Source of the DNA: Trypanosoma brucei
Taxonomy: Eukaryota
Reading direction: 5' to 3'
DNA length: 64,000 nt
NCBI GenBank assembly: GCA_000002445.1
Contig: CP000066.1
Span: 1,589,226-1,653,225, forward strand
Position 1 is the stretch's first letter. The number at the start of each line of letters is the position of its first letter. Made by a program: the position numbers. This document shows, piece by piece, positions 6,001-12,000 of the stretch.

Positions 6001-9000
6001 TTGTCCCGAGCCGGGTCCACGTCCTGCGCCACTGAATGAAGAAGCTCACAGGTGTGTTGCCGACGTCCTTGTTGCATTTGGTGGTCACCATGAATGTGCA
6101 AAACTCTACGGCACAGATCCGGCACTCGATCCTGAAGATGTCATCTTCGGCGAGAAAGGAGATGACAAACCAAAATGCACGGAGGCAGATCGACCCGAGG
6201 TGTCCACATTGGTTGGAGAAGCATGCGAGGTAAAATTGCGGACCAAACCAGAACCAGACGAATACTTGTGTAAGGTAGAAACCTCTAACGGTAAAAGAAA
6301 AATAAAGTGTACCCCCAAAACACCAAAAACAATTCCTCAACAAGCGGACACAGTAAAGAAACCAGATACCACTGAATCCATGCAGAAAAAAGCTGACGAT
6401 GGTGGTAAAACTGAGGTAACACCAGAAGTAAAAGATGGGCAAAAAGATGAAAAGGGTGGGAAAGAAAGGCAAGAAAAGCAAAAAATGGAAAATAATACTG
6501 GAAAAAGCAATGAAGCAGCGACAAACACTAAAACGCAGGCTTCTTCTTGGAAATCAAATAATCCTATTATCATGTTTTTAACACTTTCTTTATTGTTGCT
6601 TTAGTATCATTTAATAAACGGTAATGTAGACTGTTTTGAAGAAAGTATGCTTTTAACGGAGAAGGGAAGTGAGTGTATCAAAACATTTTTCTTGACAGAC
6701 GTACATTAAGGGAACATTTTTATTGTTTACTTGCCATATTGCACTGCTAAAAAACTTCTCGTGCTGGAGTTGCGTGCGAAGTATTAGATTTCTTCACCGA
6801 TTCTTTTTTGTAGCGAAGGTAAGGGGAATAGGATATGTAGTTGTGTCGGGGACGGCGTTCTGTTTGTTGAAAGGGATAGCAGGAAGAGAAAACTCTACCC
6901 CGGGTGAAAGCAACTGACTTGTGCAGTTCGTTCGGATCGATAGACAGGTGGAAATCGCCGCAAAAAGGTTGTAACAGCATTTGATCGGCACATGTGGTGT
7001 AGCGTTTTGGGTTGAGAAATGCACGCATAAAGGCACGGATGCTCAGGAAATACCCTTATTTCTGATAACATAATTGGACGCTAAGCTAGAGAAGGCACAA
7101 CACCAGATTCGAGAATACAACAGAAAAATGACGGGCGATGGCACCGACGAAGAGGAACAATTGAAGCGGGTCGCTGAAATCGATAACATCAATGCCCACG
7201 GCAGCCTCCTCTCGACGCGCGGACAAAACAAGAAAAAAAAATGCAGCTTCAGAAAAAAAAAAAAATGTTTCTTTGGGAAACCACTTGAAACTGTTGAGGA
7301 AAAGAGGGTTTGCCACGCCCAGCCGCTAATGATAATGTGAAATGGAAATTTACAGTATCCATTTAACCTACAATATCATGATTCCTACACCTTTATCATT
7401 CTTCCTTTAGCGAAAACAAAATGAGGAAACAACATGTCATATACTACGTATTTTTCTGCTTAGGAGCCATAGGAAGCAGAGGAGAGACAGAACCAATAAC
7501 AATACAAAAAGGAACGGAGTGCCACAAAGCATTGGAAACAGCGTTCACCACGCCCAAAAACTGTGAGAATGTAAGCACAGCGATAAGCGAAATGCCTGAA
7601 AATGTTAGCATTGAAACATTCCCGGGGGCATGGACCGTGTGCCAATTCATGGAAAACGAAAAAGAAAGCACAGTCACGCAATGCATTTTGAAGTTCGAAA
7701 ACGCAGAGGGAAATCGAATAGCGTGCACCTACGAAACCGAGGGCGGACAAGGAAACGTAAGCTGCACACAGGAAGTGGATGCTCCGGTGGCTTATCATCC
7801 ATACTGTGAGGGAGCCGAATACGATTATACTTATCATGACGAAAGCCACGGTCATGGGAGCGGGGGCTATGAGCGGCGTTGTCCCGAGCCGGGTCCACGT
7901 CCTGCGCCACTGAATGAAGAAGCTCACAGGTGTGTTGCCGACGTCCTTGTTGCATTTGGTGGTCACCATGAATGTGCAAAACTCTACGGCACAGATCCGG
8001 CACTCGATCCTGAAGATGTCATCTTCGGCGAGAAAGGAGATGACAAACCAAAATGCACGGAGGCAGATCGACCCGAGGTGTCCACATTGGTTGGAGAAGC
8101 ATGCGAGGTAAAATTGCGGACCAAACCAGAACCAGACGAATACTTGTGTAAGGTAGAAACCTCTAACGGTAAAAGAAAAATAAAGTGTACCCCCAAAACA
8201 CCAAAAACAATTCCTCAACAAGCGGACACAGTAAAGAAACCAGATACCACTGAATCCATGCAGAAAAAAGCTGACGATGGTGGTAAAACTGAGGTAACAC
8301 CAGAAGTAAAAGATGGGCAAAAAGATGAAAAGGGTGGGAAAGAAAGGCAAGAAAAGCAAAAAATGGAAAATAATACTGGAAAAAGCAATGAAGCAGCGAC
8401 AAACACTAAAACGCAGGCTTCTTCTTGGAAATCAAATAATCCTATTATCATGTTTTTAACACTTTCTTTATTGTTGCTTTAGTATCATTTAATAAACGGT
8501 AATGTAGACTGTTTTGAAGAAAGTATGCTTTTAACGGAGAAGGGAAGTGAGTGTATCAAAACATTTTTCTTGACAGACGTACATTAAGGGAACATTTTTA
8601 TTGTTTACTTGCCATATTGCACTGCTAAAAAACTTCTCGTGCTGGAGTTGCGTGCGAAGTATTAGATTTCTTCACCGATTCTTTTTTGTAGCGAAGGTAA
8701 GGGGAATAGGATATGTAGTTGTGTCGGGGACGGCGTTCTGTTTGTTGAAAGGGATAGCAGGAAGAGAAAACTCTACCCCGGGTGAAAGCAACTGACTTGT
8801 GCAGTTCGTTCGGATCGATAGACAGGTGGAAATCGCCGCAAAAAGGTTGTAACAGCATTTGATCGGCACATGTGGTGTAGCGTTTTGGGTTGAGAAATGC
8901 ACGCATAAAGGCACGGATGCTCAGGAAATACCCTTATTTCTGATAACATAATTGTACGCTAAGCTAGAGAAGGCACAACACCAGATTCGAGAATACAACA

Positions 9001-12000
9001 GAAAAGTGAAGACGGGTGATTTAAGCGGGTCACTGAAATCAAGATCATTAATACAGACGGCAGCATCAGTGGAGGGGGAAATATTTTTTTTAATACTTGA
9101 AACTGTTGAGGAAAAGAGGGTTTGCCACGCCCAGCCGCTAATGATAATGTGAAATGGAAATTTACAGTATCCATTTAACCTACAATATCATGATTCCTAC
9201 ACCTTTATCATTCTTCCTTTAGCGAAAACAAAATGAGGAAACAACATGTCATATACTACGTATTTTTCTGCTTAGGAGCCATAGGAAGCAGAGGAGAGAC
9301 AGAACCAATAACAATACAAAAAGGAACGGAGTGCCACAAAGCATTGGAAACAGCGTTCACCACGCCCAAAAACTGTGAGAATGTAAGCACAGCGATAAGC
9401 GAAATGCCTGAAAATGTTAGCATTGAAACATTCCCGGGGGCATGGACCGTGTGTCAATTCATGGAAAACGAAAAAGAAAGCACAGTCACGCAATGCATTT
9501 TGAAGTTCGAAAACGCAGAGGGAAATCGAATAGCGTGCACCTACGAAACCGAGGGCGGACAAGGAAACGTAAGCTGCACACAGGAAGTGGATGCTCCGGT
9601 GGCTTATCACCCACACTGTGGGGAACATGGAAGTGACCATGGTTATGATAACGGCTATGATGGTTATAATGGCGTGGCGTATGGTGAACTGGGTTGTCCC
9701 GAGCCTGGTCCACCTCCTGCCCAACCGAACGATGAAGCTCACAGGTGCATTGCCGACGTTTTCGCTGCATTTAGTGGCCACCTTCCATGTGCAAAATTCT
9801 ACGGCACAGATCAGGCATTCGGTCCTAAGGAAGTCGTCTTCGGCGAGAACGGAAATGAAAAACCAGAATGTGCAGAAGGAAGCGAACCCCCGGAATCCAA
9901 GGTGGTTGGGGAAACATGTGAAGTAAAATTGCGGACAAAAAAACAACCAGAAGAATATGTATGTAAGGTAGAAACCTCTAACGGTAAAAGAAAAATAAAG
10001 TGTACCCCCAAAACACCAAAAACAATTCCTCAACAAGCGGACACAGTAAAGAAACCAGATACCACTGAATCCATGCAGAAAAAAGCTGACGATGGTGGTA
10101 AAACTGAGGTAACACCAGAAGTAAAAGATGGGCAAAAAGATGAAAAGGGTGGGAAAGAAAGGCAAGAAAAGCAAAAAATGGAAAATAATACTGGAAAAAG
10201 CAATGAAGCAGCGACAAACACTAAAACGCAGGCTTCTTCTTGGAAATCAAATAATCCTATTATCATGTTTTTAACACTTTCTTTATTGTTGCTTTAGTAT
10301 CATTTAATAAACGGTAATGTAAACTGTTTGGAAGAAAGCATGCTTTTAACGGAGAAGGGAAGTGAGTGTATCAAAACATTTTTCTTGACAGACGTACATT
10401 AAGGGAACATTTTTATTGTTTACTTGCCATATTGCACTGCTAAAAAACTTCTCGTGCTGGAGTTGCGTGCGAAGTATTAGATTTCTTCACCGATTCTTTT
10501 TTGTAGCGAAGGTAAGGGGAATAGGATATGTAGTTGTGTCGGGGACGGCGTTCTGTTTGTTGAAAGGGATAGCAGGAAGAGAAAACTCTACCCCGGGTGA
10601 AAGCAACTGACTTGTGCAGTTCGTTCGGATCGATAGACAGGTGGAAATCGCCGCAAAAAGGTTGTAACAGCATTTGATCGGCACATGTGGTGTAGCGTTT
10701 TGGGTTGAGAAATGCACGCATAAAGGCACGGATGCTCAGGAAATACCCTTATTTCTGATAACATAATTGGACGCTAAGCTAGAGAAGGCACAACACCAGA
10801 TTCGAGAATACAACAGAAAAATGACGGGCGATGGCACCGACGAAGAGGAACAATTGAAGCGGGTCGCTGAAATCGATAACATCAATGCCCACGGCAGCCT
10901 CCTCTCGACGCGCGGACAAAACAAGAAAAAAAAATGCAGCTTCAGAAAAAAAAAAAATGTTTCTTTGGGAAACCACTTGAAACTGTTGAGGAAAAGAGGG
11001 TTTGCCACGCCCAGCCGCTAATGATAATGTGAAATGGAAATTTACAGTATCCATTTAACCTACAATATCATGATTCCTACACCTTTATCATTCTTCCTTT
11101 AGCGAAAACAAAATGAGGAAACAACATGTCATATACTACGTATTTTTCTGCTTAGGAGCCATAGGAAGCAGAGGAGAGACAGAACCAATAACAATACAAA
11201 AAGGAACGGAGTGCCACAAAGCATTGGAAACAGCGTTCACCACGCCCAAAAACTGTGAGAATGTAAGCACAGCGATAAGCGAAATGCCTGAAAATGTTAG
11301 CATTGAAACATTCCCGGGGGCATGGACCGTGTGCCAATTCATGGAAAACGAAAAAGAAAGCACAGTCACGCAATGCATTTTGAAGTTCGAAAACGCAGAG
11401 GGAAATCGAATAGCGTGCACCTACGAAACCGAGGGCGGACAAGGAAACGTAAGCTGCACACAGGAAGTGGATGCTCCGGTGGCTTATCATCCATACTGTG
11501 AGGGAGCCGAATACGATTATACTTATCATGACGAAAGCCACGGTCATGGGAGCGGGGGCTATGAGCGGCGTTGTCCCGAGCCGGGTCCACGTCCTGCGCC
11601 ACTGAATGAAGAAGCTCACAGGTGTGTTGCCGACGTCCTTGTTGCATTTGGTGGTCACCATGAATGTGCAAAACTCTACGGCACAGATCCGGCACTCGAT
11701 CCTGAAGATGTCATCTTCGGCGAGAAAGGAGATGACAAACCAAAATGCACGGAGGCAGATCGACCCGAGGTGTCCACATTGGTTGGAGAAGCATGCGAGG
11801 TAAAATTGCGGACCAAACCAGAACCAGACGAATACTTGTGTAAGGTAGAAACCTCTAACGGTAAAAGAAAAATAAAGTGTACCCCCAAAACACCAAAAAC
11901 AATTCCTCAACAAGCGGACACAGTAAAGAAACCAGATACCACTGAATCCATGCAGAAAAAAGCTGACGATGGTGGTAAAACTGAGGTAACACCAGAAGTA

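What the first reader, a model, noticed from the sequence alone, without database searches (positions are those of the whole stretch)
8990..9960. Copy 3 of the array is a segmental mosaic: two replaced patches, one coding and one intergenic
Copy 3 matches its neighbours over the first about 375 bp and the last about 340 bp of the CDS. It carries a replacement of about 350 bp in between (9608-9960) that stays in frame and encodes a different but homologous central domain. The patch shares the motif PPESKVVGE.C..KLRT with the divergent copy at 3727, and not with copies 1, 2 and 4. The intergenic region upstream of copy 3 (8998-9100) is also replaced and shortened, giving a unit of 1812 bp instead of 1878 bp. 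SNP and 3'UTR variants are also shuffled between units: copies 1 and 3 share gtgtcaattc; copies 2 and 4 share gtgccaattc; 3'UTR variant gtagactgttttg follows copies 1 and 2, and gtaaactgtttgg follows copies 0, 3 and 4. Together these indicate ongoing patchwise gene conversion inside the array, comparable to mosaic VSG formation but in a non-VSG family.
Basis: seen in the sequence. Interest (0 to 1): 0.7.

Follow-up and report, generated by a model that had tools for sequence, protein, structure and literature searches.

The report
Chimeric copy in trypanosome surface-gene array
The fourth gene of a five-gene tandem array of Trypanosoma brucei-specific surface-protein genes is a true patchwork of two old sequence lineages, an ordinary by-product of recombination between tandem repeats that is already well documented in this parasite.

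Summary
The window is the last 64 kb of T. brucei TREU927 chromosome 3. The array is the published Tb927.3.5690-.5730 array (Jackson 2007 "array 20"; cell-surface phylome Fam6).

Copy 3 (9233-10297) is identical to copies 1, 2 and 4 except in two islands:
- 9610-9961: 94 substitutions plus one extra codon.
- 9006-9094, in the spacer: 32 substitutions and 66 bp fewer.

126 of 131 substitutions fall in 24% of the unit.

Outgroup polarisation is symmetric, 30:30 in the CDS island and 9:11 in the spacer island. Divergence is similar in both (pS 0.37 and p 0.36). So both islands belong to an equally old, otherwise unsampled "type B" unit lineage. They are not copied from copy 0 and are not local hypermutation.

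No donor was found in the window or in two protein libraries (about 15 billion proteins behind each). The family is reported as five genes.

I read copy 3 as a recombinant array unit made during concerted evolution. Most likely it is a B-type unit largely overwritten by type A. Import from an allelic B unit cannot be excluded.

The VSG-mosaic analogy is not supported. Chimeric copies were already reported in 21 of 47 T. brucei arrays, though not in this one. Interest is low to moderate.

The parts
3727..4719 (+). Copy 0, the divergent first gene of the array. It is Tb927.3.5690 by order in the array and is the ortholog of the single T. b. gambiense gene Tbg972.3.6170.
   Evidence: About 40% amino-acid identity to copies 1-4.
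4666..4812 (+). Tract of at least 96% identity between copy 0 and the type-A units. It covers the GPI-signal codons plus the proximal 3'UTR and sits inside sequence that is 50-70% identical. Probable intra-array conversion tract.
   Evidence: 52 of 54 nt are identical in the last 18 codons, including synonymous sites.
5149..12437 (+). Homogenised type-A repeat block of 3.88 units of about 1878 bp.
   Evidence: Identity to the neighbouring units is 100% from 5149 and ends at 12437.
5543..6604 (+). Copy 1 (type A, 353 aa).
7421..8482 (+). Copy 2 (type A, 353 aa).
9006..9094 (+). Spacer island of type-B sequence, 139-227 bp upstream of the copy-3 ATG. 32 substitutions in 89 aligned bases and 66 bp of deletions relative to type A.
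   Evidence: Polarisation against the array's downstream flank gives 9 versus 11.
9095..9609 (+). Type-A tract between the two islands. It holds the polypyrimidine tract and AG just before the ATG, and the first 377 nt of the copy-3 CDS. It carries the derived T at 9454, which is shared with copy 1.
9233..10297 (+). Copy 3, the chimeric gene. It is Tb927.3.5720 by order in the array. XP_844162, UniProt Q57VH1, 354 aa.
9610..9961 (+). Coding island of type-B sequence, residues 126-243. It covers the His/Tyr/Gly/Asp-rich linker loop and most of the second 6-Cys module. 73% nt identity to type A, 53 of 114 aligned residues differ, and all cysteines are kept.
9962..10321 (+). Type-A tract covering the last 336 nt of the copy-3 CDS and the start of the 3'UTR. 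It is identical to copies 1, 2 and 4.
10322..10339 (+). 3'UTR haplotype AGC, shared with copy 4 (12199-12216). Copies 1 and 2 carry GTT and copy 0 carries AGT.
11113..12174 (+). Copy 4 (type A, 353 aa).
12700..12900 (+). Diverged relic (about 65-70% identity) of the inter-unit spacer in the array's downstream flank. Used as outgroup for the spacer island.

Best explanation
Copy 3 is a recombinant unit of a concertedly evolving tandem array. Two unit lineages once existed at this locus. Type A is now copies 1, 2 and 4 and most of copy 3. Type B is now represented only by two islands, 9006-9094 and 9610-9961.

Homologous recombination between misaligned repeats (gene-conversion tracts, unequal sister-chromatid exchange, or both) spread type-A sequence over the array. 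It overwrote a B-type unit everywhere except in the two islands. Copy 3 therefore encodes a protein with a type-A first module and tail and a type-B linker and second module.

Shown:
- the mosaic and its sharp breakpoints;
- the age and common ancestry of the two islands;
- no donor found in the window or in the protein libraries searched.

Inferred:
- the mechanism (recombination between repeats);
- the direction (flanks overwritten, rather than islands imported).

My confidence in the general statement (chimera of two array-unit lineages made by recombination) is about 0.85. My confidence in the direction is about 0.5, and that is the figure given.
For: 1. Differences are confined to two blocks, with 0-1 differences in the 515-bp and 336-bp tracts beside them.
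2. In the CDS island, dS is 0.51 and dN is 0.29. Both are zero in the flanks, apart from the synonymous change at 9610 that marks the island's first base. The island is therefore old sequence, not a recent burst.
3. Polarisation with copy 0 gives 30 sites where the outgroup agrees with copy 3, 30 where it agrees with copy 1, and 15 where it agrees with neither. The two lineages are equally diverged sisters.
4. The spacer island gives the same picture: 9 versus 11 against the downstream-flank outgroup. Its divergence (p = 0.36) is close to pS = 0.37 in the CDS island. Third positions give 0.30 and four-fold sites 0.20 with n = 30. This fits one B-type unit that included its own spacer, that is, a resident of a homologous array.
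5. All cysteines are kept and the frame is kept.
6. No other B-type sequence was found in the window, in the word-indexed search of a collection of about 15 billion proteins clustered at 90%, or in the exhaustive HMMER scan of 1.84 billion representatives of clusters at 50% identity. The cell-surface phylome lists the family (Fam6) as exactly five genes.
7. Copy 0 shows a comparable high-identity tract at 4666-4812. The small variants fail the four-gamete test. Exchange therefore does occur in this array.
8. Chimaeric copies and concerted evolution are documented for T. brucei arrays (PMC1855330).
Against: - The direction is not resolved. A recently amplified A-A-A-A array that received one discontinuous tract, or two tracts, from a B-type unit on the homologous chromosome needs fewer events.
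- The order A-A-B'-A is not produced by any single unequal crossover from a simple A-B ancestor.
- Both island edges are abrupt, with no gradient of divergence. That fits a few recent events in either direction.
- Only one genome sequence was available. No T. brucei DNA collection could be searched with these tools.
- Four-fold-site divergence in the patch (6 of 30) is lower than the spacer divergence, so the 'same age' argument is approximate.
Confidence: 0.5

Rival explanations
1. Import. Copy 3 was an ordinary type-A copy. It received type-B sequence by gene conversion from a B-type unit that is not in the reference. The most plausible source is the allelic array on the homologous chromosome 3, or a unit since lost. 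This needs either two tracts or one discontinuous tract, with the 515 bp in between restored or never converted.
For: The array history is simple: recent amplification of A (copies 1, 2 and 4 differ by at most 7 alignment columns per unit) followed by one event. Both islands have similar divergence, so one donor suffices. The donor must have had a homologous spacer, which an allelic array would have. Jackson 2007 notes that homologues were not distinguished in the reference.
Against: No donor was found in the window, in the annotated TREU927 proteome, or in any other genome represented in the protein libraries. Conversion between sequences that are 64-73% identical is expected to be inefficient. 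Ectopic conversion was found to be very rare for T. brucei arrays.
Confidence: 0.33
2. Assembly artefact. The mosaic arose when reads from different repeat copies or from a paralogous locus were merged.
For: Tandem repeats of 1.9 kb with near-identical copies are hard to assemble. Jackson 2010 warns that assembled copy number can be arbitrary.
Against: The old systematic name Tb03.2H15.520 suggests that the array came from a single BAC clone. This rests on my knowledge of the naming convention. The family has no other locus that could supply foreign reads. The island is only 352 bp, so single Sanger reads would span both junctions (inference). The chimeric ORF is intact with all cysteines. Jackson 2010 counted two unique isoforms in this array from sequence data. 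Copy order and number could still be wrong without affecting the mosaic.
Confidence: 0.05
3. Programmed or selected diversification like VSG mosaics. Segmental conversion is used to generate antigenically new isoforms of a bloodstream-stage surface protein.
For: The family is predicted to be signal-peptide plus GPI, and its transcripts are higher in bloodstream forms. The island covers a whole extracellular module and a hypervariable loop, with 45% of residues changed. The array lies next to a subtelomeric VSG/ESAG region.
Against: Only one variant copy exists and no archive of donors is known. dN/dS in the island is 0.58, not above 1. A non-coding spacer island of the same age accompanies it, which is not expected from selection on the protein. 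There is no Pfam VSG domain. Nothing shows a somatic event.
Confidence: 0.05
4. Local accelerated divergence of copy 3 without recombination, through hypermutation or positive selection on the central domain.
For: Differences are strongly clustered in a surface-exposed region.
Against: Synonymous divergence in the island is high (dS 0.51) and zero in the flanks apart from the island's first base. Copy 3 keeps the outgroup state at 30 of 75 polarised sites, as often as copy 1 does. A second island in non-coding DNA has the same property.
Confidence: 0.02

Closest known systems
Chimaeric duplicates in T. brucei tandem gene arrays (Jackson 2007, BMC Evol Biol 7:54; 76 events in 21 of 47 arrays)
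   Same: Same organism and the same kind of locus. A tandem array evolves in concert, with sharp changes of affinity along a unit that also affect UTRs and spacers. This very array was in that survey as array 20.
   Different: The survey recorded no event for array 20. One parent of the chimera is absent from the array, so methods that need both parents in the alignment would not be expected to detect it (my inference).
T. brucei phosphoglycerate kinase array (PGK-A/B/C), where the middle gene is a chimaera of its neighbours (as summarised in PMC1855330)
   Same: A tandem array holding a chimeric copy that encodes a distinct isoform.
   Different: In the PGK array both parents are present in the array and the isoforms have known, different locations. 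Here one parent is missing and nothing is known about function.
Mosaic VSG formation by segmental gene conversion
   Same: In-frame patchwork of diverged homologous sequences in a gene for a GPI-anchored surface protein of the same parasite.
   Different: VSG mosaics are assembled somatically in a telomeric expression site, from several silent donors, under antibody selection. This is a germline feature of a chromosome-internal array. It has one foreign lineage, no known donor, and an accompanying non-coding island.
Cell-surface phylome Fam6 (Jackson et al. 2013) and the T. b. brucei-specific chromosome 3 duplication (Jackson et al. 2010, Table 1 and Fig. S2; Carnes et al. 2015)
   Same: This is that locus. 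Five genes, signal peptide plus GPI signal, T. brucei-only. There is a single copy in T. b. gambiense DAL972, and the duplication is reported absent from T. evansi STIB805. 'Two unique isoforms' were noted.
   Different: Those papers describe copy number and isoform count. None of the passages I read describes the breakpoint structure of the fourth gene.

Membership tests
Tb927.3.5690-.5730 array (Jackson 2007 array 20; cell-surface phylome Fam6) | Position on TREU927 chromosome 3 (1592952-1601399), five copies, CDS of 993-1062 bp, signal peptide | tested here: met
   The proteins are 100% identical to TREU927 entries on a 1,653,225-bp contig. The array span in the window, 3727-12174, is 8447 bp, the same as the published span. 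CDS lengths match.
Tb927.3.5690-.5730 array (Jackson 2007 array 20; cell-surface phylome Fam6) | Restricted to T. brucei, with no relatives elsewhere | tested here: met
   phmmer against 1.84 billion representatives finds only the two clusters of this array, plus two spurious bacterial repeat proteins. There is no Pfam family and no PDB relative.
Tb927.3.5690-.5730 array (Jackson 2007 array 20; cell-surface phylome Fam6) | N-terminal signal peptide and C-terminal GPI-addition signal | tested here: inconclusive
   Hydrophobic N- and C-termini are visible in the translations, and Jackson 2013 lists SP = y, GPI = y. No predictor was run here.
Chimaeric array copy made by gene conversion or unequal exchange (concerted evolution) | Tandem paralogues that are otherwise near-identical | tested here: met
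   Copies 2 and 4 differ at 7 of 2148 alignment columns. The proteins of copies 1, 2 and 4 are identical.
Chimaeric array copy made by gene conversion or unequal exchange (concerted evolution) | Abrupt, statistically non-random change of sequence affinity along the unit | tested here: met
   126 of 131 substitutions lie in 23.6% of the unit. dS is 0.51 inside the island and 0 outside it apart from its first base.
Chimaeric array copy made by gene conversion or unequal exchange (concerted evolution) | Both parental sequences identifiable | tested here: not met
   The type-A parent is present. No type-B parent was found in the window or in the protein libraries.
Chimaeric array copy made by gene conversion or unequal exchange (concerted evolution) | Single reads spanning the breakpoints | not testable with these tools
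   No read data or T. brucei DNA collection is available.
VSG-type mosaic gene formation | Gene is a VSG, or lies in or is copied into a telomeric expression site | tested here: not met
   No VSG Pfam domain in copies 0, 1 or 3. The array lies in a polycistronic unit about 52 kb from the end of the assembled chromosome. The VSG domains are found in other ORFs of the window.
VSG-type mosaic gene formation | Several silent donors contribute segments | tested here: not met
   Only one foreign lineage is present and no donor was found.
VSG-type mosaic gene formation | Arises somatically during infection | not testable with these tools
   This would need time-course sequencing of infections.

The most novel reading that the evidence does not exclude
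Fam6 proteins are bloodstream-stage surface antigens, and their second 6-Cys module is kept polymorphic by exchange with B-type units carried on the other homologue or in other strains. The array would then act as a small, strain-variable diversification system for an invariant-type surface protein. The copy-3 chimera would be one captured product of an ongoing process.
Probability: 0.1. Interest if true: 0.55.

Novelty: new member of a known kind. Interest (0 to 1): 0.25.

Why it matters
It adds one clear case of a chimeric copy with a missing parent to the known picture of concerted evolution in trypanosome tandem arrays. Recombination scans that need both parents in the alignment can miss such cases. 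The published survey listed no event for this array.

The locus is T. b. brucei-specific, absent as an array from T. b. gambiense and T. evansi, and predicted to encode GPI-anchored proteins with bloodstream-biased transcripts. Its two isoforms differ by 45% in one whole module, so they could differ in ligand or antibody recognition.

Nothing here changes how gene conversion or antigenic variation is understood.

Tried and rejected
- Donor search inside the window. blastn with word size 7 and tblastn found only the five known copies. The patch is 79% identical to its siblings over the alignable part and 73% identical to copy 0.
- Donor search in protein libraries. This returned only the array's own clusters. 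Exact-protein look-ups of encoding contigs found nothing on record.
- Copy 0 as donor of the PPESKVV motif. Rejected, because the codons differ at four synonymous sites and window identity never exceeds about 80%.
- Pfam and PDB sequence search. No family.
- AlphaFold2 on the four-sequence alignment gave pLDDT 39. That is too poor for a fold search, so none was run. Only the secondary-structure pattern was used, with caution.
- BLASTP between the two putative 6-Cys modules was not significant (E = 4). The two-module reading rests on cysteine spacing and the weak model.
- Literature searches by accession numbers and by gene IDs 5700-5730 found nothing. A search for a long-read re-assembly of TREU927 found nothing relevant.
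- The 299-300-aa antisense ORFs in each copy were dismissed as a by-product of the purine-rich sense strand.
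Full report
**Where the window comes from**

The copy-3 protein is 100% identical to XP_844162 / Q57VH1 of Trypanosoma brucei brucei TREU927. That entry lies on a contig of 1,653,225 bp, which I take to be chromosome 3.

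Jackson 2007 (PMC1855330, Table S3) lists "array 20", Tb03.2H15.520 = Tb927.3.5690:
- chromosome 3, five copies;
- CDS of 993-1062 bp, with a signal peptide;
- position 1592952-1601399.

That span is 8447 bp, the same as window 3727-12174. Window base 1 is therefore chr3:1589226, and the window ends at the last base of the assembled chromosome. It ends in GAATTC inside a VSG gene.

Carnes 2015 names the array Tb927.3.5690-.5730. By order, copy 0 is .5690 and the chimeric copy 3 is .5720. This assignment is inferred from order only.

The rest of the window holds VSG-domain ORFs, an ESAG1-like ORF and ingi reverse transcriptase. A GC-skew sign change near 14 kb fits a strand-switch region.

**Check of the observation**

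Five + strand ORFs start at 3727 (330 aa), 5543, 7421, 11113 (353 aa, identical proteins) and 9233 (354 aa). Start-to-start distances are 1878, 1812 and 1880 bp.

In a MAFFT alignment of the four similar units, copy 3 differs from its neighbours only in these places:
- 9610-9961: 94 substitutions plus a 3-bp insertion at 9682-9684.
- 9006-9094: 32 substitutions in 89 aligned bases, plus deletions of 19, 43 and 4 bp.
- A lone SNP at 8955.
- The three 3'UTR SNPs at 10322, 10330 and 10339, which it shares with copy 4.

Between the two islands lie 515 bp with no difference from copy 1. After 9961 there are 360 bp with no difference from any copy.

126 of 131 substitutions fall in 23.6% of the unit, roughly 1e-79 by chance.

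The TGT/TGC variant at 9454 pairs copies 1 and 3 against copies 2 and 4. Copy 0 has TGC, so T is the derived state.

The one qualification is that only PPESKV is specific to copies 3 and 0. VGE.C..KLRT is present in all copies.

**What the islands are**

*Divergence in the coding island.* Between copy 3 and copy 1, dS is 0.51 and dN is 0.29 (pS 0.37). Both are zero in the flanks, apart from the synonymous change at 9610 that marks the island's first base. Copy 0 is much further from both, with dS about 1.5.

*Polarisation with copy 0.* Of the 75 polarisable differences:
- the outgroup agrees with copy 3 at 30 sites;
- it agrees with copy 1 at 30 sites;
- it agrees with neither at 15 sites.

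The island is therefore neither a hypermutated type-A sequence nor a copy of copy 0. It is a sister lineage of type A, equally diverged. I call it type B.

*The shared motif.* The PPESKVV motif is ancestral retention. The codons of copy 3 and copy 0 differ at four synonymous positions there.

*The spacer island.* It behaves the same way. The flank downstream of copy 4 keeps a relic of the inter-unit spacer at about 65-70% identity. Used as outgroup, it agrees with the island at 9 sites and with type A at 11 sites. It also shows that the 19- and 43-bp segments are ancestral and were deleted in type B.

*Age of the two islands.* Spacer divergence is p = 0.36. In the coding island, pS is 0.37, third positions give 0.30, and four-fold sites give 0.20 with n = 30. 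Within these small numbers the two islands are the same age. They most simply come from one B-type unit that had its own spacer, that is, a unit of this array or of its allele.

**Search for a donor**

- blastn and tblastn within the window find only the five copies.
- The word-indexed search of about 15 billion proteins in 5.8 billion clusters returns only the two TREU927 clusters.
- The exhaustive HMMER scan of 1.84 billion representatives adds only the copy-0 / T. b. gambiense cluster and two spurious bacterial repeat proteins.
- Jackson 2013 lists the family (Fam6, example Tb927.3.5700) as five T. brucei genes, none in T. congolense or T. vivax. It records signal peptide and GPI as yes, and transcripts higher in bloodstream forms than in procyclic forms.
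- Jackson 2010 reports a single gene, Tbg972.3.6170, in T. b. gambiense. The extra copies are absent from its read library, and two unique isoforms occur in T. b. brucei.
- Carnes 2015 reports that the duplication is absent from T. evansi STIB805 as well.

No T. brucei DNA collection could be searched with the tools. An unannotated or allelic donor is therefore not excluded.

**The protein**

Fourteen cysteines of the mature protein are invariant in types 0, A and B. Their spacing suggests two tandem 6-Cys modules joined by a His/Tyr/Gly/Asp-rich loop. The secondary-structure pattern of a poor AlphaFold model (pLDDT 39) points the same way: helix, helix, four strands, twice. The loop is 24 residues shorter in copy 0.

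The B island covers residues 126-243, that is, the loop and most of module 2. 19 of 25 loop residues and 34 of 89 module residues differ from type A. dN/dS is 0.58, which gives no sign of positive selection.

There is no Pfam or PDB relative, and BLASTP between the two modules is not significant.

**Other traces of exchange in the array**

- The type-A block is homogeneous from 5149 to 12437.
- Copy 0 is 50-70% identical to type A over most of its unit. From about 4666 to 4812 it is at least 96% identical. This tract covers the last 18 codons, where 52 of 54 nt match including synonymous sites, and about 95 nt of 3'UTR. It looks like a conversion tract, although constraint on the GPI signal and a 3'UTR element could contribute.
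- The variant at 9454 (copies 1, 3 | 2, 4) and the 3'UTR haplotype (copies 1, 2 | 3, 4) give all four gametes. This requires one exchange or one recurrent mutation.

**Mechanism**

The anatomy is what recombination between misaligned tandem repeats produces. Long identical tracts end abruptly at islands of old sequence, in coding and non-coding DNA alike.

Two directions are possible:
1. *Relic model.* A B-type unit was overwritten by type A except in two islands.
2. *Import model.* A type-A unit received B-type tracts.

I favour the relic model slightly, about 0.5 against 0.33. The whole family lies in this array, no donor is known, and the spacer island shows that the B lineage was an array unit.

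Against this, the import model needs fewer events if the homologous chromosome carries a B unit. Jackson 2007 stresses that homologues were not distinguished in the reference.

An assembly chimera from a distant paralogous locus is unlikely (about 0.05). No such locus was found. The old name Tb03.2H15.520 suggests a single BAC clone, a point that rests on my knowledge of the naming convention. The island is also shorter than a Sanger read.

**Comparison with what is known**

Jackson 2007 found 76 conversion events and chimaeric copies in 21 of 47 T. brucei arrays, often reaching into UTRs. That paper also discusses the PGK array, whose middle gene is a chimaera. For array 20 no event was recorded by PDM/HMM or GENECONV/SISCAN. 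This is probably because those tests look for a parent inside the alignment (my inference).

The present case is therefore a further, previously unlisted example of a known phenomenon at a known locus.

It does not meet the defining features of VSG mosaic formation. It is not a VSG, it is not in an expression site, it has no donor archive, and no somatic origin is shown.

**Verdict**

The mosaic and the recombination are accepted. The direction, the link to copy 0 and the VSG analogy are not.
- Novelty: new member of a known kind.
- Interest: 0.25.

Noticed in passing
window 4666-4812: Copy 0 shares a tract of at least 96% identity with the type-A units. It covers the last 18 codons and about 95 nt of 3'UTR and lies inside sequence that is 50-70% identical. 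Synonymous sites match too. This is probably a separate intra-array conversion tract.
   Followed up: partly
window 12438-12900: The flank after the last copy keeps a diverged relic (about 65-70% identity) of the inter-unit spacer. For about 30 bp after 12437 it resembles the copy-0 flank (4990-5015) more than it resembles type A. The homogenised block ends sharply at 12437.
   Followed up: partly
window 9614-9700 and equivalents 5924-6010, 7802-7888, 11494-11580: A His/Tyr/Gly/Asp-rich loop sits between two conserved cysteines. It is 24 residues shorter in copy 0 and is the most diverged part of the copy-3 island (19 of 25 residues differ). A metal-binding or disordered linker is possible. 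Not tested.
   Followed up: no
window 5582-6481, 7460-8359, 9272-10174, 11152-12051 (minus strand): Each array copy carries a 299-300-aa antisense ORF starting with TTG. Nothing supports it. It is most likely a by-product of the purine-rich sense strand.
   Followed up: no
window 18249-19136 (minus strand): An ORF of 295 aa with hydrophobic N- and C-termini and a Ser/Gly-rich middle, and no Pfam hit. It may be another trypanosome-specific surface protein, on the other side of the strand switch.
   Followed up: no
window 36981-63841: Subtelomere-like content. VSG-domain ORFs lie at 36981-38081, 52222-53667, 59367-60872 and 62798-63841. An ESAG1-like ORF lies at 39510-40484, and ingi-type reverse transcriptase and RNase H ORFs at 44305-47651. 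There is a (TAT)14 run at 62459-62500. The window ends in GAATTC inside a VSG gene.
   Followed up: partly
window 5240-5400 and equivalents in each spacer: The type-A spacer holds a short ATG-initiated reading frame and two long A runs, about 140-300 bp upstream of the next ATG. The B-type island deletes part of this. Polyadenylation of the upstream gene is expected near here, so the island may alter the 3' end of the copy-2 mRNA rather than the 5' end of copy 3. This is inference only.
   Followed up: no
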